Below, piece by piece: positions 2,541 through 59,545 of a DNA stretch of 64,000 nucleotides. The DNA is taken from assembly GCA_965263165.1 (NCBI GenBank), contig OZ253584.1, forward strand, positions 1,138,401 through 1,202,400, in the 5' to 3' direction. The stretch comes from Dehalococcoidia bacterium. GTDB taxonomy: Bacteria > Chloroflexota > Dehalococcoidia > Lucifugimonadales > SAR202-VII-2. Every line of letters starts with the position of its first letter. Position 1 is the stretch's first letter. Position numbers and translations under genes: made by a program. Under the pieces are notes generated by a model. The model was not told where the DNA came from. It saw only the letters and a program-made list of their open reading frames with translations, and did not search any database.

Positions 2541-3554
2541 CTAGCCTTCGCCCAGGCCCAGCTTTCGGCGCAGGTTGTCCTCGATGCGATTGATCTCATT
2601 GTCCGAGCCGAGCATTTGGTCCAGGAACGGCTTGGAGGGATATCCAGTCTCTATTTCCGCCTGGAGCTCCTCAGCGAAGGCGCCGCTCTGAATGTCCTTC
2701 ACAGCCTCGCGCATGCTGTCCGCCATGACGTCCCTATCCACGGCCATGGTCCGGGTCATGCCGCCGAAGGCGGCGGCATACCCGTGGAGGTAGACGGAGC
2801 GAAAGAAGCCGGCGTCGGCCATGGCCTGGAACGTTTTGGACATCTCCCCCGAGAGATACATTTCCAGGAGCAGGCCCTCTGGAGGCAGGCCCGCCTCTAC
2901 GCCCACTTGGAAGGCCGCAAGGATGGCGGCGCCCAGCCAGGGTCCCAGGGCCTGCTCGCCGAACAGGTCGAGGTTGGCTTCCTGTTTGGCGCTGAGGTGG
3001 AGGGCGCCTCGTCTCAAAGAACCTGCCGCTTTGGCCACGGCCAGCAGTGTCGGCCAAGCGTTGCCTGTGGCGTCCTGCTCCACCGAGACGTAGCTCAGGA
3101 AGCCCTTTTCGGCCAGGAAAAGCTCGCGAATGACGTCGCCGACCATCCTGGGGGCGAACAACAGCACGTCGACGCCCGGCGGTGGTGCGATGAGGTTGTA
3201 GGCTAAGTTGTAGCCGGAGGCGAACAGCAGGGCCGACCCCGGCCGCAGATGGGGTCTGACCGAGGCCTCCATGACTTCAGGCTGGGTCTCGTCGGGCACG
3301 AGGAGGAGCGTCAGGTCAGCCTGGGCAACCGCGTCTGCTATCGGTGAGACCGGGAACCCCTCATTGCCGGCCAAGTCATGGGAGGCGTCATTCCGGCTCC
3401 CCACGATTACCCTGGCCTGTGTGGCGTCCCGAAGGTTGAGCGCCATTGACCTGCCTAGATGGCCGTACCCCACAATAGCGACGGTCTTGCCCGACAGCGC
3501 CGCGATATCTGCATCGGCCTCGCGGAAAACCGGGAGGCCGTCGTTAGACGTCAT
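2541..3554 (-). CDS. Divergent ketol-acid reductoisomerase-like oxidoreductase
   Basis: GYGHLG Rossmann motif and DLFGEQ metal motif; several substrate residues differ from the canonical IlvC at 8437. Confidence 0.85.
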   Translation of the reverse strand: MTSNDGLPVFREADADIAALSGKTVAIVGYGHLGRSMALNLRDATQARVIVGSRNDASHDLAGNEGFPVSPIADAVAQADLTLLLVPDETQPEVMEASVRPHLRPGSALLFASGYNLAYNLIAPPPGVDVLLFAPRMVGDVIRELFLAEKGFLSYVSVEQDATGNAWPTLLAVAKAAGSLRRGALHLSAKQEANLDLFGEQALGPWLGAAILAAFQVGVEAGLPPEGLLLEMYLSGEMSKTFQAMADAGFFRSVYLHGYAAAFGGMTRTMAVDRDVMADSMREAVKDIQSGAFAEELQAEIETGYPSKPFLDQMLGSDNEINRIEDNLRRKLGLGEG

Positions 3555-3960
3555 GGGCCTCCTCCCTGGCCTCGCGGTAGCTGGCTAAGAAGGGGTCGAG
3601 CATGCCGGCGAACTTGCTCAATTTCAGTGGATGCAGGCCTTTCACCTTCAACTTGCCGGTAATGAAGGCCGTGCCGAAGGAGGTGCGACCCCAGGCCGCA
3701 TCATTCAGCGTCGTGCTCGACATGCCAATCGTGATGGAGGGGTTGCCGTCGACGGAAGGGGCGAAGCGGAGCGCTGGGCCCGATTGGTCGGAAACCAGGT
3801 GCACTGCCATCGCCAGATCGTCGAACTCCCACCGCACGGTTTGAAACGCCGCAGCGATGCGCTCGAGCTGGGGAGCGTCCAGCTTTTCGTTGAGCAGCTC
3901 CACGGTGCGGCGAAGGGCGTTTTGAAGCTCTTCTCCGGAGGCGGGCGGGGACTGAGTCAC
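3544..3960 (-). CDS. SCP2 sterol/lipid-binding domain protein
   Basis: C-terminal AFITGKLKVKG motif; overlaps start of KARI-like gene. Confidence 0.75.
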   Translation of the reverse strand: MTQSPPASGEELQNALRRTVELLNEKLDAPQLERIAAAFQTVRWEFDDLAMAVHLVSDQSGPALRFAPSVDGNPSITIGMSSTTLNDAAWGRTSFGTAFITGKLKVKGLHPLKLSKFAGMLDPFLASYREAREEAHDV

Positions 3961-3990
3961 GAGGTGCTCCTGTTAGTTGGATCCTCGACG

Positions 3991-4285
3991 TCAATGAGGA
4001 TAACCCGAACCGGAACCGTGCGGAAATGCCTTTTTAGGCGTTGGATCTGTTGGGCCCCTGAGGTGTTTCTTCTGAGAGTATTTCTGCGGTGCTCTGCCCT
4101 CATCCAAATTGAAGACGTAGTTGTCCGCTTTGGTGAAACATGAGATGACCTCGTATGTTGTAGGGAGGTGAGGTAACGACTGGACCTACAAGGTCTTCAG
4201 GGAGAGACCTAAGAAGCTTCATGCAATCGTCGTGAAGAAGCGCCGCGTCGGCGGTTGGATCGAAAGCGGTCGTCAGATGGCGCAT
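3991..4285 (-). pseudogene. Internally deleted, frameshifted N4/N6 DNA methyltransferase relic
   Basis: DCMKLLRSLPEDLVGPVVTSPPYNI (motif IV), then in another frame YEVISCFTKADNYVFNLDEGRAPQKYSQKKHLRGP, normally much further downstream in beta-class MTases. Confidence 0.75.
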
Positions 4286-55093: not shown

Positions 55094-55858
55094 ATGGCTG
55101 TGGGTAACACGCTTGCAGGAGGCATTGGAAGAACCCCCAGTACTGAGTACGCTCTGATGGAGAGCTTCGAGCTGACTCTTCATAGCAATATACGCTCCCG
55201 TCGGTCACCTAGCCAGATACGCCTGCACGAACTTGACGGTCTCCAAGGGCGGGCTGATTTGGTGGACGCTCACATCCATGCGTTGCCCAGTGCCGTGAGC
55301 CTTGACGTGCTGGCAGCTTCTCTGATGTCACCTGCGAAAGCTCGGTTACTCGCTCTTCTAAGGTACGGCGCCCCTCGGAGCAGGGGCTACCTTGCGAGAG
55401 GTACGGGCTTCTCGAGTCGTTCTCTGGGAGACCACATCCGACACCTGGAGAGAGTAGGGCTTGCCAATGTTCACAAGAGTACGGCCGTTTCGCTGGGTTG
55501 CCCGTTGCCATGGTCGATGGTTGATATCACAGCTTACGAGGGCAAGCTTTCAAATTGGCGCCGGGCGTTGCACCAGGCAGTAGGCTACCGCTCTTTCTCC
55601 CGGTCCGTGTGGGTAGTCATGCCAGCGTCTGGAGCCCAGCATGCCAAGAAGCTCGCAACGGTCTTCCACATCAATGGAATCGGATTAATAGCAATTGCCG
55701 GCGACGGCAGCGCGCACGTTGAAATCAGAAGTAGGAAACGCCGTCCAGCAAGCCGCAGGCTTTACTTGATGGCAGTTGGGGTTATCCTAACCAAATTTAT
55801 AGAGGAAAGGAGGCGTTTACACCGCCGCATTAGACCTGAAACGATTCAGCGCATCTAG
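55094..55858 (+). CDS. PD-(D/E)XK nuclease-fold protein with inserted winged helix
   Basis: HE...GRADLV...[HTH: RGYLARGTGFSSRSLGDHIRHLERVG]...EGK...QAVGY (QxxxY)...GIGLI. Confidence 0.7.
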   Translation: MAVGNTLAGGIGRTPSTEYALMESFELTLHSNIRSRRSPSQIRLHELDGLQGRADLVDAHIHALPSAVSLDVLAASLMSPAKARLLALLRYGAPRSRGYLARGTGFSSRSLGDHIRHLERVGLANVHKSTAVSLGCPLPWSMVDITAYEGKLSNWRRALHQAVGYRSFSRSVWVVMPASGAQHAKKLATVFHINGIGLIAIAGDGSAHVEIRSRKRRPASRRLYLMAVGVILTKFIEERRRLHRRIRPETIQRI

Positions 55859-56992
55859 CCATTGATCTAAGTGAGTTGGGCCTGTGTCAGTCGTGAACGG
55901 CACCAGGGTTCCCGCTTGTGCGTAGACCGCGAGTGCTTGGGCAATCAAGTTGTGGGCCGAATCTAAACGATGGCTAACCGTGCCACCTGAGAGCGACCGC
56001 AATATATCAGCCAGCACAAGCCAGTGTTGGAGCGCGGCATCCTCGGCTGGCCATAAGACGTTCTCTGGGTTGGTATTCCCATTGAATCGGGCGTCGAACG
56101 GCGTAGCAGAGAGCACATCGGCCACGCGACCCCCATTGTAAATTCCATCGAGCTCGGTCATGTAGATGCTGTTTAGCAGCGGCGAGGACGAATAGCGAGG
56201 TCGTGGCTGCCTACCCCCAGGCACTGGTTGGAATCGGCGCCAGTTGAACTGGCGCAAGCTGGCAAACCAACCGGCTCCAGTCGCAGTGACACCTACGGCA
56301 TGCAATAACAGCGTGACCACATCGGTGTATCCAACCAAGAGGCGGTATTGGTTCAACTCCGCAAGCGAATAGCAGACGCGTAGCAGCGAGGCAAGCACCT
56401 CCGGTTCGTAGTGCTGGCGGTAAGTTTCTGACGTGCGCCGGACAATCAAATAGAAGCCGGCGACATCCAACTGAGTGAGGCTATCTAACCAGTCGTCCAC
56501 TGGTACCCGCTGCAGTAGCGCATCCTCCCCGACCGCAAGGCTTATCAACAATGGCTTATTACCATTGTGCTGAGCAACGGTCTCCTGTGCGAGCATCATG
56601 GCGATCTGAGCCCACTGGCTACTGAGGTCATCAACCATCACAGTGGGGGACACGACTGCTGAAACGTCCAGTCCATTCTGCCAATTCAGAGCAGCACTCA
56701 CGAAAGTTCGTATTTCTGCCGGACTAAAGGTGCTCGGCGTTAAGTGCTGCCTGTAGTGATCGTAGTACAGAAGCTTGCCGTCGCGGACTGGCCAAATGGT
56801 TCCGGCGTAGAGTTGGGGGTCTACTAGCCGTTCAGAGTGTGGGAAGTTAGCTTGAGTCGCCGACAGGAATGAAGCAAGGTTATCTGGCAACTCGTCTCGA
56901 GGGCTCATGATTACGCCTTGAATGGAGTGGTTCGCAATTCCTTGCTCGATCTTATTCGTCTTACCCCAACCATGCTGTGCTAGAATCGTCAT
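55817..56992 (-). CDS. Uncharacterised protein, probable TIM barrel (beta-protein/TGT-like)
   Basis: Alternating beta/alpha pattern with QHG, SP, DPQLY, GFY, VGY, GAGWF..LRQF and GGRQPRPRY motifs; 4 bp overlap with the kinase. Confidence 0.55.
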   Translation of the reverse strand: MTILAQHGWGKTNKIEQGIANHSIQGVIMSPRDELPDNLASFLSATQANFPHSERLVDPQLYAGTIWPVRDGKLLYYDHYRQHLTPSTFSPAEIRTFVSAALNWQNGLDVSAVVSPTVMVDDLSSQWAQIAMMLAQETVAQHNGNKPLLISLAVGEDALLQRVPVDDWLDSLTQLDVAGFYLIVRRTSETYRQHYEPEVLASLLRVCYSLAELNQYRLLVGYTDVVTLLLHAVGVTATGAGWFASLRQFNWRRFQPVPGGRQPRPRYSSSPLLNSIYMTELDGIYNGGRVADVLSATPFDARFNGNTNPENVLWPAEDAALQHWLVLADILRSLSGGTVSHRLDSAHNLIAQALAVYAQAGTLVPFTTDTGPTHLDQWLDALNRFRSNAAV

Positions 56993-57897
56993 ATCTTGAC
57001 TCCTAACCTGACTGCCACTTCCTCAATAGCTGCCTTCGCATGGTCACACCTTCGATACCTGAGGTGCGGCGCCTTGCCGAGCAACCTTGCAATAAAGGCG
57101 CTCAGGTCGAGTGGGAAACCTTCGATCCTTTCGGCTACCGGCGGAGGCGTTATCGTGAGGATTCCGGCCAGTGTCTGAGATAGACTTGTGCCATCTGCCT
57201 TGAATGGGTGTTCAGATACAGCAGCTTCGTACAGCACAACCCCTATTGCGAATAGGTCAGACCTGAAATCTAAGGCTCGTTTTCGAGAGGGGTCCATCTG
57301 CTCTGGGGAAAGATAGGCCATGGTCCCAACCGGAACTGGCACCATGGTCAGCGAAGGTCCGTGCAAGTCAAATGCGACTCCAGTATCAAGTAGCACAAAC
57401 CTTGAACTATCAACGGCCCACATCACATTAGCGGGTTTTATATCGCGATGAACCAGCCCCCGACCAGACAGCCAACATGTAGCCTGTACAAGGTCAATAC
57501 CCAATTGAGCGACTTGGACTGGCGAAAGCCTAGCCTCGCGAATCATCTCTTGTAGGTTTTTGCCTTCGACCCATTCTTCAGTAAAACAAAGCCAACGCGC
57601 GGCGGCCACCTCGACCATGAAAAGGCCCAATGGACCACGCCTCGCGAGAACTGGCACATCAACCTGGTCCAAGATGGCTACCTCGCGCTGAGCCCTCCCG
57701 ACCACCGCACGTATATCGAGGTCATCTTCCTCCGAAGTTACTTTCTCAGGAGCTACGGCAATCAGCTTCAGTGCGATGGTTTGTCCTTTAAGCAAGGCCT
57801 TATAGACCGCCTTCTGCCCGCCTTTCTGGACAAGTTCAGCGGCATCAATATCAGCAATGCAGGCCGCAAGCATTTCTCCTGTCGGGTAATCCACCAT
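56989..57897 (-). CDS. Hanks-type Ser/Thr protein kinase (no TM or sensor domain)
   Basis: KGGQKAVY loop, IALK, HRDIKPAN, DTG (DFG variant), GTMAYLSPE and DLFAIG; ATG 57897 preferred over GTG 58014. Confidence 0.93.
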   Translation of the reverse strand: MVDYPTGEMLAACIADIDAAELVQKGGQKAVYKALLKGQTIALKLIAVAPEKVTSEEDDLDIRAVVGRAQREVAILDQVDVPVLARRGPLGLFMVEVAAARWLCFTEEWVEGKNLQEMIREARLSPVQVAQLGIDLVQATCWLSGRGLVHRDIKPANVMWAVDSSRFVLLDTGVAFDLHGPSLTMVPVPVGTMAYLSPEQMDPSRKRALDFRSDLFAIGVVLYEAAVSEHPFKADGTSLSQTLAGILTITPPPVAERIEGFPLDLSAFIARLLGKAPHLRYRRCDHAKAAIEEVAVRLGVKI

Positions 57898-58231
57898 TTC
57901 TGCCCTTTTATGAAGATTCCACGCCTTGTCTTTGAAGAACCACTTGCCCCAACCACCAATGGAAGCCGAAGCTCGGCTGCGGTTTAATGAGACATCGCGC
58001 ACCGTAACACTCACTAGTGTACATCAACCGCGGACGACTCTGCTGTCAGGCTGTTTACTATTGGCCGATGTGCGAATGCCCGCACCTGATATTATCGATC
58101 TGTCATTTCTGCGAAAACAAGTCCCGCCCCCATACCCTCGGTTGCCCTGGAGGTTGCGTGAGCAGCATTCGCAACGCCGTCGCCACGATCGACGGGCCAG
58201 CCCCCGCCCCCGGCGACGCCCAGCAGGGAAA

Positions 58232-58336: not shown

Positions 58337-59545
58337 GTGGTTATGGCAACCTCCCACGGGACCCATTGGACCGAACCCACCGGCGACGCCAAGGCCGGGT
58401 TCGGCAGGTGGCAGCGGCCGGCAAGCCCCTACGACCGCTTCATGGAGGAAGAGGGGATACCCGTACACCGGGCCATCGGCGTGCACCGGGTGCAGGACCT
58501 TCCCCTGAAGCCCTGGAAGCGGACGGGAGGCAACGGGACCTACATCCAACTCTACGGAACGGAAGGCCTTTGGGGCATGTACGTCGTGGAGGTACCCGCC
58601 GCCGGCGCGCTGAACGTCGAGCGCCATCTCTACGAAGAGACCTTCCTCGTCGTCGAGGGACGCGGCTCCACCGAGGTGTGGCAGGACAAAGACCCATCCA
58701 AGAAGAGCGCCTTCGAGTGGAGCGCGGGGTCGTTGTTCTCGGTTCCCCTCAATTCATGGCATCGCATCATCAACGCGACGTCCAGCCCGGCCCTGCTGCT
58801 GGCGGGCACGACGGCCCCCAACGCCATGAACCTGTACATGAACAGGGACTTCGTCTTCAACACGCCCTACGACTTCACCGACCGCTACGACGCGGCGGCC
58901 GACTTCTACCGCCCCGCTGAGGACCTGGCGCCCGATCCGGTCCGCGGCCTCGCCATGCTTCGAACGAACATCATGCCGGACATCATCAACTGCGAGCTTC
59001 CGCTGGACAACCGCCGCTCCCCCGGGTATCGCCGGGTGGAGCCGCACATGGCGTCCAACAAGTTCTACCTGTGGATAGGCCAGCACGAAACGGGGCGCTA
59101 CTCGAAGGCCCACGCGCACGGCTCGGCGGCGGTGCTGATTTGCCTCAAGGGGAAGGGGTACACCTATACCTGGCCCGCGGAGTTGGGGACGCATCCGTGG
59201 GAGACAGGGAAGGCGGAAAGGGTGATGTGGCAGGACTACGAGCCGGTGGGCATGGTGAGCGCCGCGCCCATGAGCGGCGACTGGTTCCACCAGCACTTCG
59301 GCGTCAGCTCCCAACCCCTGCGGTTGACGGCCTGGTTCGGCCCGCACGCGCCCGGCCGCGAGGCCGGCCGTCCCGGAGAGGAAGCCATCGACAAGGGCGC
59401 CATTGACCTGCATGAAGGCGGGACCGCGATCCCCTACTGGGAAGAGGACCCCTATATCCGCACGGAGTTCGACGCCAAGCTGCAACAGGAGGGCGTCGGC
59501 TCTCGCATGGACGAATCGTTCTATCGCAGGCCGTCCGGAGCGTGA
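58337..59545 (+). CDS. Bicupin of unknown function paired with an EutA-like gene
   Basis: RHLYEETFLVVEGRG...NSWH and SKAHAHGSAAV...WFHQHF His motifs in both cupins. Confidence 0.8.
   Translation: MVMATSHGTHWTEPTGDAKAGFGRWQRPASPYDRFMEEEGIPVHRAIGVHRVQDLPLKPWKRTGGNGTYIQLYGTEGLWGMYVVEVPAAGALNVERHLYEETFLVVEGRGSTEVWQDKDPSKKSAFEWSAGSLFSVPLNSWHRIINATSSPALLLAGTTAPNAMNLYMNRDFVFNTPYDFTDRYDAAADFYRPAEDLAPDPVRGLAMLRTNIMPDIINCELPLDNRRSPGYRRVEPHMASNKFYLWIGQHETGRYSKAHAHGSAAVLICLKGKGYTYTWPAELGTHPWETGKAERVMWQDYEPVGMVSAAPMSGDWFHQHFGVSSQPLRLTAWFGPHAPGREAGRPGEEAIDKGAIDLHEGGTAIPYWEEDPYIRTEFDAKLQQEGVGSRMDESFYRRPSGA

What the first reader, a model, noticed from the sequence alone, without database searches (positions are those of the whole stretch)
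55094..57897. Ser/Thr kinase + TIM-barrel-like protein + wHTH-PD-(D/E)XK nuclease: candidate new anti-phage system
Seen: a visibly AT-richer three-gene module between a repeat block and a REP. Kinase and the 391 aa protein overlap by 4 bp; the nuclease gene converges and overlaps the second gene's 3' end by 42 bp. The kinase is a bare catalytic domain with a GGQK loop and DTG. The nuclease keeps E, D, ExK and QxxxY with a helix-turn-helix inserted between the catalytic elements. Established: stand-alone kinases (e.g. staphylococcal Stk2) and PD-(D/E)XK nucleases act in abortive infection and restriction; beta-protein/TGT-like barrels occur in conflict loci. I do not recognise this combination as a named system. 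Inference: phosphorylation-gated nuclease defence, with the barrel as sensor, antitoxin or base-modifying enzyme.
Basis: partly seen in the sequence, partly recalled or inferred. Interest (0 to 1): 0.8.

Follow-up and report, generated by a model that had tools for sequence, protein, structure and literature searches.

The report
Conserved kinase, TGT-like barrel, nuclease module
A horizontally acquired three-gene cassette (protein kinase, TGT-like TIM-barrel protein, DNA-binding nuclease) stays together across bacteria and archaea, often beside known anti-phage genes, so it is probably an undescribed immune system built like the phage P4 gop-beta-cII system.

Summary
Three ORFs lie in a low-GC island (53-57% against 62-70%): a wHTH-interrupted PD-(D/E)XK-like protein (55094-55858, +), a 391-aa protein (55817-56992, -) and a bare Hanks kinase (56989-57897, -). 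The overlaps are 4 bp and 42 bp, as reported.

The 391-aa protein models confidently as a TIM barrel. Its best solved-structure matches are tRNA-guanine transglycosylases and CBASS Cap10.

In 70 non-redundant loci, the kinase sits directly upstream of the barrel in 56 of 57 assessable cases. The nuclease is present in every locus with enough flank, in three different gene orders. The loci come from Chloroflexota, Latescibacterota, Bacillus and Polaromonas plasmids, a haloarchaeal plasmid and metagenomes. Catalytic residues of all three proteins are conserved, and neighbouring genes include many known defence genes.

A same-genus relative lacks the island. In a sister strain a MITE breaks the barrel gene, and that strain's kinase carries DTG>DTR.

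PADLOC, Pfam and NCBIfam recognise only the kinase. The closest known system is P4 gop-beta-cII (the "TIM-B" class), which has the same architecture. Sequence homology of the barrel and the nuclease to beta and cII could not be shown.

Verdict: a real, probably new variant of a toxin/antitoxin-like defence system. Its function is untested.

The parts
56989..57897 (-). Bare Hanks-type Ser/Thr kinase, 302 aa. The frame stays open up to a GTG at 58014, but that extension is probably not coding.
   Evidence: Pkinase matches at 9.7e-24, and the closest solved kinase is PknB at 7e-24. K83, E111, H189-R190-D191, N196 and D210 (numbering of the 341-aa frame) are 98-100% conserved in 57 homologues. The start was inferred from homologue lengths and from non-conservation of residues 1-39 in the sister strain.
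55817..56992 (-). 391-aa TGT-like TIM-barrel protein with no Pfam, NCBIfam, PADLOC or PHROG family. It is translationally coupled to the kinase gene.
   Evidence: The AF2 model has pLDDT 92.3 and pTM 0.92. Foldseek against the PDB gives QTRT1 6h42 (E 1.4e-4, TM 0.55), TGT 2ash and Cap10 9ntn. The family holds 1071 clusters at 50% identity, nearly all 385-405 aa. Q6, G8, G26, D58-P59-Q60, P116 and G241 are invariant.
55094..55858 (+). 254-aa PD-(D/E)XK-like protein with an ArsR-type winged helix inserted between the D and ExK motifs.
   Evidence: HTH_20 matches at 1.3e-6. The AF2 model has pLDDT 87.8 with topology a18-33, b41-45, b56-61, [wHTH 70-134], b143-150, a155-165, b171-177. E18, E46, D55, E149, K151 and Q161 are 98-100% conserved. 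Remote homologues lie next to the kinase in Bacillus and haloarchaeal plasmids (hhalign E 4e-7 and 1.5e-11).
55292..55501 (+). The wHTH insertion (about residues 67-136) inside the nuclease core.
   Evidence: Pfam HTH_20 covers residues 77-126. PDB profile hits are to YgaV, ArsR and SmtB, and Foldseek hits cover this part only.
56989..56992 (-). ATGA stop/start overlap of the kinase and barrel genes.
   Evidence: A -4 or near-zero gap recurs in most homologous loci.
55817..55858 (.). 42-bp overlap between the 3' ends of the converging barrel and nuclease genes.
   Evidence: Convergent overlaps of 4-89 bp occur in 26 of 52 non-redundant complete loci.
56824..56828 (.). Site where a MITE of about 186 bp interrupts the barrel gene in the sister strain.
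   Evidence: L001 6166-6351 has 19-nt terminal inverted repeats. Contigs from other samples break here with the same TIR letters.
58120..58200 (.).
   Evidence: There are at least 4 copies at 89-95% identity in the genome. Contig depth is about 5-fold higher here.

Best explanation
This is a self-contained, horizontally mobile three-gene conflict system. It is most likely anti-phage and of the abortive-infection or toxin-antitoxin type. Its layout matches phage P4 gop-beta-cII, with a Hanks-type Ser/Thr kinase in the place of the Gop toxin.

Proposed working:
1. The kinase and the TGT-like barrel are made together from one coupled transcript. The barrel, whose conserved pocket suggests an enzyme or ligand-binding protein, keeps the kinase harmless. 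It could do this by direct binding or through a nucleobase-transfer-type modification or product.
2. Infection disturbs the barrel or its substrate. The kinase then phosphorylates host or phage proteins and arrests growth.
3. The wHTH-nuclease is the DNA-directed arm. It acts either as a second effector or as a DNA-bound regulator or sensor.

Shown here: the three genes are an obligate unit, the catalytic residues of all three are conserved, the cassette is mobile and patchy, and it lies near defence genes.

Inferred: defence function, the kinase as the toxic effector, the barrel as its restrainer, and the role of the nuclease.
For: Linkage. In 70 non-redundant loci, the kinase is directly upstream on the same strand in 56 of 57 with enough flank, and the nuclease is present in all loci with enough flank. 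The orders are 26 convergent, 21 co-directional downstream and 4 upstream. The trio persists at 20-26% identity on plasmids of Bacillus mycoides, Polaromonas and the archaeon Natribaculum, and in two distant Dehalococcoidia. No fourth gene recurs.

Active sites are conserved in all three proteins.

Mobility and patchiness. The island has low GC. It is absent from a syntenic same-genus genome. Close homologues occur in only 1 of 401 sampled genomes of the class. IS elements, integrases and resolvases flank many copies.

Defence context. Among 141 neighbouring ORFs from 30 loci there are strong PADLOC hits: HmaC (E=0, x3), DUF499 x3, MADS mad2/3/8, HEC-09 x2, type IIG and type III RM, a methyl-directed REase, AbiEi, DolB and PDC-M37B.

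Fold. The barrel's best solved-structure matches are the deazaguanine transglycosylases, including CBASS Cap10.

Precedent. P4 gop-beta-cII has the same layout. It protects against lambda and P1, and Gop is toxic without beta (PMC9122126). It is triggered by a phage gene (bioRxiv 10.1101/2023.04.06.535777). Beta is described as a TGT-like 'TIM-B' barrel paired with varied effectors and a converging REase (bioRxiv 10.64898/2026.10.19.760177).

Decay pattern. The kinase is split or lost with the barrel intact in L005, L090 and L007/8. The one barrel disruption (a MITE in L001) is accompanied by kinase G212R in the DTG motif, and by pN of 0.029 against 0.007-0.009 in the other two genes.
Against: There is no experimental data, and no expression data could be obtained.

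The barrel and nuclease match no PADLOC, Pfam, NCBIfam or PHROG model.

Profile-profile comparison does not link the barrel to PF14350 (probability 0.7%). It links the nuclease core to the cII family only weakly (P=0.019). The resemblance to gop-beta-cII may therefore be convergent.

No copies were found in phage genomes or IMG/VR contigs.

The defence-neighbour count has no matched background control.

The toxin/antitoxin reading rests on a handful of decayed loci. The G212R change could equally be an allele brought in by recombination, because pS is also raised in that segment.

The nuclease fold is inferred from motifs and predicted topology only.
Confidence: 0.55

Rival explanations
1. Phosphorylation-gated nuclease. 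The kinase is the sensor or switch and the wHTH-nuclease is the sole killing effector, activated by phosphorylation. The barrel is an adaptor or sensor.
For: The nuclease catalytic residues are as strictly conserved as those of the kinase, and the nuclease is never missing when the flanks are available. Kinase-regulated defence is known, for example BREX PglW and MADS mad6, whose models the kinase also hits.
Against: Translational coupling links the kinase to the barrel, not to the nuclease. The nuclease gene changes position and strand freely. The kinase is the component repeatedly lost while the barrel and nuclease stay intact, which is unexpected for a mere switch. In L007/8 the nuclease is truncated as well.
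Confidence: 0.2
2. Modification-restriction logic. The barrel is a DpdA-like base-exchange enzyme that marks host DNA or RNA, the wHTH-nuclease cuts unmarked nucleic acid, and the kinase regulates the pair.
For: The barrel's best structural matches are base-exchanging transglycosylases. It has conserved polar residues after most beta strands (Q6-H7, D58, E156, D224) and a conserved hairpin, RYSSxPLLNSI. A DNA-binding nuclease is the obligate partner.
Against: The TGT zinc site is absent, and the window protein has a single Cys. There is no TGT or DpdA HMM hit. No DpdB-like ATPase or deazapurine-synthesis gene recurs next to the trio. In the sister strain, barrel disruption with the nuclease left intact is tolerated in several samples. 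That would be hard for a restriction system that has lost its modifier.
Confidence: 0.13
3. The cassette is not immunity. It is an addiction or stabilisation module of mobile elements, or a regulatory kinase module with no role against phages.
For: It occurs on plasmids and next to integrases, resolvases and IS elements. No phage-resistance data exist.
Against: Most copies are chromosomal, sit beside bona fide defence genes rather than replication or transfer genes, and lack a recognisable mobile-element backbone. TA-like addiction and abortive infection are not mutually exclusive.
Confidence: 0.1

Closest known systems
Phage P4 gop-beta-cII (DefenseFinder 'Rst_gop_beta_cll') and the 'TIM-B systems' of bioRxiv 10.64898/2026.10.19.760177
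   Same: It is a three-gene unit. An effector gene is followed directly on the same strand by a protein of about 355-390 aa with a deazaguanine-transglycosylase-like TIM barrel. A REase-type gene of about 255 aa converges on it and overlaps its 3' end (P4; window). The nuclease shares the motif order E...RxD...ExK...Q. The system is mobile and patchy, with toxin/antitoxin-like behaviour reported for P4 and suggested here.
   Different: The effector here is a Hanks Ser/Thr kinase. That class is not among the effectors listed for TIM-B (Gop 2TM, PAACC, HigB, REase, Pol-beta, GNAT, sirtuin, RES, caspase, 2TM-B). The barrel does not match PF14350 by HMM or by profile-profile comparison. The nuclease carries an internal wHTH, where cII has terminal helical/HeH extensions, and it does not match PF26915 or NF033832. 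In about half of the loci the nuclease gene is co-directional, so convergent transcription is not essential.
PD-T4-6 (single-gene Ser/Thr kinase defence, E. coli) and staphylococcal Stk2
   Same: Both are kinase-based defences that use a Hanks-type catalytic domain. The PADLOC PD-T4-6 models match this kinase over its full length (1.7e-37).
   Different: Those are stand-alone genes, whereas this kinase is always accompanied by the barrel and the nuclease. The PD-T4-6 models are unspecific: they also label the housekeeping PASTA kinase found in every S. thermophilus genome (PMC11514479). This kinase scores similarly against PknB.
Deazaguanine transglycosylases in defence: DpdA (Dpd DNA modification) and Cap10 (type IV CBASS)
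   Same: They give the best structural matches for the barrel. They set a precedent for a TGT-like enzyme that modifies DNA or a partner protein to control immunity.
   Different: There is no sequence-level match and no zinc site. There are no QueC/DpdB/CD-NTase partners. The partner here is a protein kinase.
HipA/HipB-type kinase toxin-antitoxin modules (including DS-6 of DefensePredictor, PMC13092281)
   Same: The kinase is the candidate growth-arresting toxin, held in check by a co-transcribed partner. A DNA-binding HTH component is present.
   Different: HipA is a different kinase fold family. The antitoxin there is a small HTH protein rather than a 390-aa TIM barrel, and no nuclease is involved.

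Membership tests
P4 gop-beta-cII / TIM-B system | Central protein with a deazaguanine-transglycosylase-like TIM barrel | tested here: met
   The AF2 model has pLDDT 92. The top Foldseek PDB hits are QTRT1, TGT and Cap10, with E 1e-4 to 1e-3 and TM about 0.5.
P4 gop-beta-cII / TIM-B system | Central protein belongs to Pfam PF14350 (Beta_protein) | tested here: not met
   There is no Pfam hit at E<=1 for the window protein or for five distant relatives. hhalign of the broad family profile A4 against the PF14350 alignment A3 gives probability 0.7%. No P4 beta relative was recognisable among the named BFVD hits.
P4 gop-beta-cII / TIM-B system | Effector gene immediately upstream, co-directional and coupled | tested here: met
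   A 4-bp overlap is present here, and the kinase is upstream in 56 of 57 loci. However, the effector class (Ser/Thr kinase) is not one described for TIM-B.
P4 gop-beta-cII / TIM-B system | Converging, overlapping REase gene homologous to cII (PF26915 / NF033832) | tested here: inconclusive
   The convergent 42-bp overlap is met. Homology is not established. There is no HMM hit. hhalign of the nuclease core A5 against the cII family A6 aligns E, D, ExK and Q in register, but P is only 0.019 and probability 2.4%.
P4 gop-beta-cII / TIM-B system | Anti-phage activity, with the effector toxic in the absence of the barrel | not testable with these tools
   Only indirect evidence exists: the pattern of decayed loci.
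PD-T4-6 | Match to the PADLOC PD-T4-6 kinase models | tested here: met
   The match is 1.7e-37 over positions 14-273 of a 311-position model. The models are generic for Hanks kinases (PMC11514479).
PD-T4-6 | Single-gene, stand-alone system | tested here: not met
   The kinase is always in a trio with the barrel and the nuclease.
Hanks-type (eukaryote-like) Ser/Thr kinases | VAIK Lys, alphaC Glu, HRD..N catalytic loop, DFG Asp, and an APE-like motif | tested here: met
   K83, E111, H189-R190-D191, N196, D210 (DTG) and SPE are 98-100% conserved. Pkinase matches at 1e-23.
PD-(D/E)XK nuclease superfamily | Core alpha-beta-beta-beta-alpha-beta fold with D at beta2 and (D/E)xK in beta3 | tested here: met
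   The predicted topology and residue placement fit. E18, E46, D55, E149, K151 and Q161 are conserved.
PD-(D/E)XK nuclease superfamily | Significant sequence or structure match to an established member | tested here: inconclusive
   Foldseek sees only the wHTH insert. The core-only profile finds nothing in the PDB or Pfam.
tRNA-guanine transglycosylase / DpdA family | TGT Pfam/PADLOC DpdA HMM match and a Cys3-His zinc site | tested here: not met
   There is no HMM hit. The window protein has a single Cys, and no conserved Cys cluster exists.

The most novel reading that the evidence does not exclude
A widespread immune system (about 1000 clusters at 50% identity, in both bacteria and archaea) in which a eukaryote-like protein kinase is controlled by a nucleobase-transferase-like TIM barrel. 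This would be a new regulatory chemistry: base or nucleotide conjugation to a kinase, or a small-molecule brake on it. It would be coupled to a DNA-bound nuclease and would have evolved independently of, or very anciently diverged from, P4 gop-beta-cII.
Probability: 0.3. Interest if true: 0.85.

Novelty: new variant of a known kind. Interest (0 to 1): 0.7.

Why it matters
If confirmed, this adds a large protein family with no Pfam or defence-database entry to the map of prokaryotic immunity. The barrel has 1071 clusters at 50% identity, and its obligate nuclease partner is likewise unannotated.

It would extend the just-described TIM-B/gop-beta-cII design principle to protein kinases. It would also give a tractable case for asking what TGT-like barrels do in defence: whether they modify a partner, make a signal, or sense a phage product.

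There is a practical point too. PADLOC would label this locus as single-gene 'PD-T4-6', hiding the real three-gene unit.

Tried and rejected
- Sequence links to known families. Pfam, NCBIfam, PADLOC and PHROGs give nothing for the barrel and only HTH_20 for the nuclease. PDB profile searches give no hit for the barrel and only wHTH regulators for the nuclease.
- Nuclease core with the wHTH cut out (A5), searched against the PDB and Pfam: nothing significant.
- Foldseek with the whole nuclease model: dominated by the wHTH and uninformative for the core.
- Homology to P4 beta and cII. Comparisons of profile against single sequence and of profile against profile were negative or marginal. BFVD showed only generic TIM barrels and phage TGT.
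- Phage carriage: no tblastn hit in 50,697 phage records and none in IMG/VR.
- Promoter and terminator scans: not above shuffled expectation.
- A recurrent fourth gene: none found. Only a DUF499/HmaC-like ATPase recurs, in 3 loci.
- The broad alignment A4 was too diverse for collection scans, so A1 was used instead.
- Earlier scan notes searched by sequence: none.
- Identity of the insertion that splits the L005 kinase: no PDB match for its two ORFs.
- RNA evidence: the runs holding the locus are kept only as contigs of unknown type, so transcription could not be assessed.
Full report
**1. What is in the sequence**

The window comes from a Dehalococcoidia genome of 3.09 Mb assembled as one contig.

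Between 55094 and 58014 there are three long ORFs:
- a 254-aa protein on the + strand (55094-55858);
- a 391-aa protein on the - strand (55817-56992);
- a kinase on the - strand (56989-58014 as the longest frame).

The kinase stop overlaps the 391-aa start in ATGA. The 391-aa gene and the 254-aa gene converge and share 42 bp.

GC content falls to 0.53-0.58 across the three genes, against 0.62-0.71 on both sides.

Homologues are 296-312 aa long. In a 99%-identical sister strain the 39 upstream codons are not conserved and the GTG is lost.

**2. The three proteins**

*Kinase.* It is a bare Hanks-type catalytic domain. Pkinase matches at 1e-23, and PknB is the closest solved structure. Its unusual loop (GGQK) and DTG in place of DFG are as reported. 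K83, E111, HRD, N196 and D210 are 98-100% conserved in 57 non-redundant homologues.

PADLOC's PD-T4-6 models match it at 1.7e-37. Those models are generic: they label the housekeeping PASTA kinase in every Streptococcus thermophilus genome (PMC11514479).

*391-aa protein.* It has no Pfam, NCBIfam, PADLOC or PHROG family and no PDB sequence relative. It nevertheless belongs to a large, length-constant family of 1071 clusters at 50% identity.

Its AlphaFold model is confident (pLDDT 92.3, pTM 0.92). The model is a TIM barrel with a conserved beta-hairpin and a helical C-terminal part. The best solved-structure matches are the tRNA-guanine transglycosylases (6h42, 6h62, 2ash) and CBASS Cap10 (9ntn).

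Conserved polar residues follow most barrel strands: Q6-H7-G8, D58-P59-Q60, P116, E156, D224 and G241-W242. This pattern is typical of an active or ligand-binding pocket. The TGT zinc site is absent.

*254-aa protein.* It has an ArsR-type winged helix (HTH_20, residues 77-126) inserted between two halves. Together the halves have the alpha-beta-beta-beta-alpha-beta order of a PD-(D/E)XK core. E18, E46, D55, E149-x-K151 and Q161 are 98-100% conserved.

No significant match of the core to a known nuclease could be obtained. The nuclease assignment therefore rests on motifs and predicted topology.

**3. Are the three genes a unit?**

Yes, and this is the strongest result.
- All five species-representative genomes with a close barrel homologue carry all three genes in the same order. 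They are Dehalococcoidia, another Chloroflexota and a Latescibacterota.
- Eighty metagenome loci at 34-45% identity were added and scanned with HMMs built for each protein.
- After collapsing to 70 clusters at 95% identity, the kinase lies directly upstream on the same strand in 56 of 57 clusters that have at least 900 bp upstream.
- The nuclease is present in every cluster with enough flank.
- Three arrangements occur: 26 convergent (as here), 21 co-directional downstream, and 4 upstream of the kinase.
- At 20-26% identity the same trio occurs on plasmids of Bacillus mycoides and Polaromonas naphthalenivorans and of the haloarchaeon Natribaculum breve. There the order is nuclease, kinase, barrel. 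hhalign confirms the remote nuclease homologues (E 4e-7 and 1.5e-11).
- Two distant Dehalococcoidia relatives also have the kinase-barrel overlap.
- No fourth gene recurs.

Linkage that survives gene-order shuffling across two domains of life indicates functional interdependence.

**4. Mobility and context**

Close homologues were found in only 1 of 401 sampled genomes of the class, and in one copy in the window's own genome.

A same-genus genome is syntenic on both sides (78-81% DNA identity). In the slot between the ETF-alpha and bicupin genes it carries an epimerase, a metallo-beta-lactamase-fold protein, an MmyB-type regulator, an SRPBCC protein and an MFS fragment. It has no trio.

Other copies lie beside IS elements, a resolvase, integrases, a PLD-type nuclease and Fic.

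A PADLOC scan of 141 neighbouring ORFs from 30 loci gave strong hits to:
- HmaC (three ORFs, E=0) and DUF499 (three ORFs);
- MADS mad2/3/8 and HEC-09;
- type IIG and type III restriction enzymes and a methyl-directed restriction enzyme;
- AbiEi, DolB, PDC-M37B and DrmD/DpdE-type helicases.

I had no matched background for this count, so it is suggestive and is not a statistical result. No copy was found in phage genomes or IMG/VR contigs.

**5. Closest known system**

A preprint of October 2026 (bioRxiv 10.64898/2026.10.19.760177) defines 'TIM-B systems'. Their founder is the beta protein of satellite phage P4 (Pfam PF14350).
- Beta is described there as a deazaguanine-transglycosylase-like TIM barrel.
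- It is paired with an upstream effector: Gop, PAACC, HigB, Pol-beta, GNAT, sirtuin, RES, caspase or 2TM-B.
- In the P4 type, a converging, overlapping REase gene (cII) is also present.

P4 gop-beta-cII protects E. coli against lambda and P1, and Gop is toxic without beta (PMC9122126). A phage gene triggers cell death through the system (bioRxiv 10.1101/2023.04.06.535777).

The P4 locus (gop 133 aa, then beta 355 aa, with cII 264 aa converging) and four further loci have the same geometry as the window. cII shows E...RRAD...ExK...Q without an insert.

Membership could not be demonstrated:
- The broad barrel profile does not align with a PF14350 alignment (probability 0.7%).
- The nuclease core aligns with the cII family in the correct catalytic register, but only at P=0.019.
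- A Ser/Thr kinase is not among the effector classes listed for TIM-B.

I therefore treat the window's system as working like gop-beta-cII without filing it as a member.

**6. Clues to the internal logic**

The sister strain is 98.5% identical over the barrel 3' part and the nuclease gene. In it, a 186-bp MITE with 19-nt terminal inverted repeats interrupts the barrel at about codon 56. The same break is seen in contigs from other samples.

That strain's kinase gene is still open but carries G212R in the DTG motif. G212 is 96% conserved in the family. The kinase also has about 3-4 times the non-synonymous divergence of the other two genes (pN 0.029 against 0.007-0.009).

Elsewhere the kinase is the component that decays while the barrel stays intact:
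- in L005 it is split by an insertion;
- in L090 it is fragmented;
- in L007/L008 it is absent.

This is the pattern expected if the kinase is the costly or toxic effector and the barrel restrains it, as Gop and beta do. The sample is small, and raised pS in the same segment leaves recombination as an alternative explanation.

Half of the loci have the nuclease gene co-directional. Antisense interference between converging transcripts therefore cannot be an essential part of the mechanism.

**7. Verdict**

The interpretation 'candidate new anti-phage system' is supported as far as comparative genomics can go. The specific 'phosphorylation-gated nuclease' mechanism is one of several possibilities and is not the one best supported.

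The most likely reading is a kinase-effector variant of the gop-beta-cII/TIM-B design, or a convergent analogue of it. Confidence is about 0.55 for a defence or conflict system with this logic. The finding is a new variant of a known kind, and function remains to be tested experimentally.

Noticed in passing
L001 6166-6351 (sister strain); insertion site corresponds to window 56824-56828: A 186-bp MITE with 19-nt terminal inverted repeats (CTAGCAGGCTGCGGAAGAA / TTTTTCCGCAGCCTGCTAG) and about a 5-bp target duplication interrupts the barrel gene. The same allele appears in contigs from at least two other samples or studies.
   Followed up: partly
L005 3293-5596: In a Chloroflexota genome the kinase gene of the trio is split by an insertion of about 2.3 kb carrying two ORFs (286 and 292 aa) with no PDB sequence match. 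The barrel and nuclease remain intact.
   Followed up: partly
window 58120-58200: A dispersed repeat of about 78 bp has at least four copies in the genome at 89-95% identity and about 5-fold raised contig depth. It bounds the low-GC island on the kinase side.
   Followed up: partly
window 58337-59545 and own genome C1:2110381-2117652: The bicupin next to the island has about 10 paralogues in the genome, including a tandem array of six copies. Same-genus relatives have similar arrays.
   Followed up: no
L118 8885-13808 (same-genus genome G401): The ETF-alpha/bicupin slot is a variable region. This relative carries epimerase, MBL-fold, MmyB-type regulator, SRPBCC and MFS genes where the window has the repeat block plus the trio.
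   Followed up: partly
L014 6210-6899 (Natribaculum breve plasmid): The archaeal version of the trio is followed directly by a calcineurin-like metallophosphoesterase (Metallophos_2, 3.7e-27). This could be a phosphatase or nucleotide-hydrolase accessory. It is not seen in the bacterial loci.
   Followed up: no
L023, L030, L080 (e.g. L080 629-3961): A DUF499/HmaC-like ATPase of about 1110 aa recurs next to the trio in three unrelated metagenome loci.
   Followed up: no
L016 about 3300-4100 (Polaromonas pPNAP03): An unannotated 169-aa ORF upstream of the annotated kinase matches the nuclease HMM (2e-17). The public plasmid gene table misses the third gene of the trio.
   Followed up: partly
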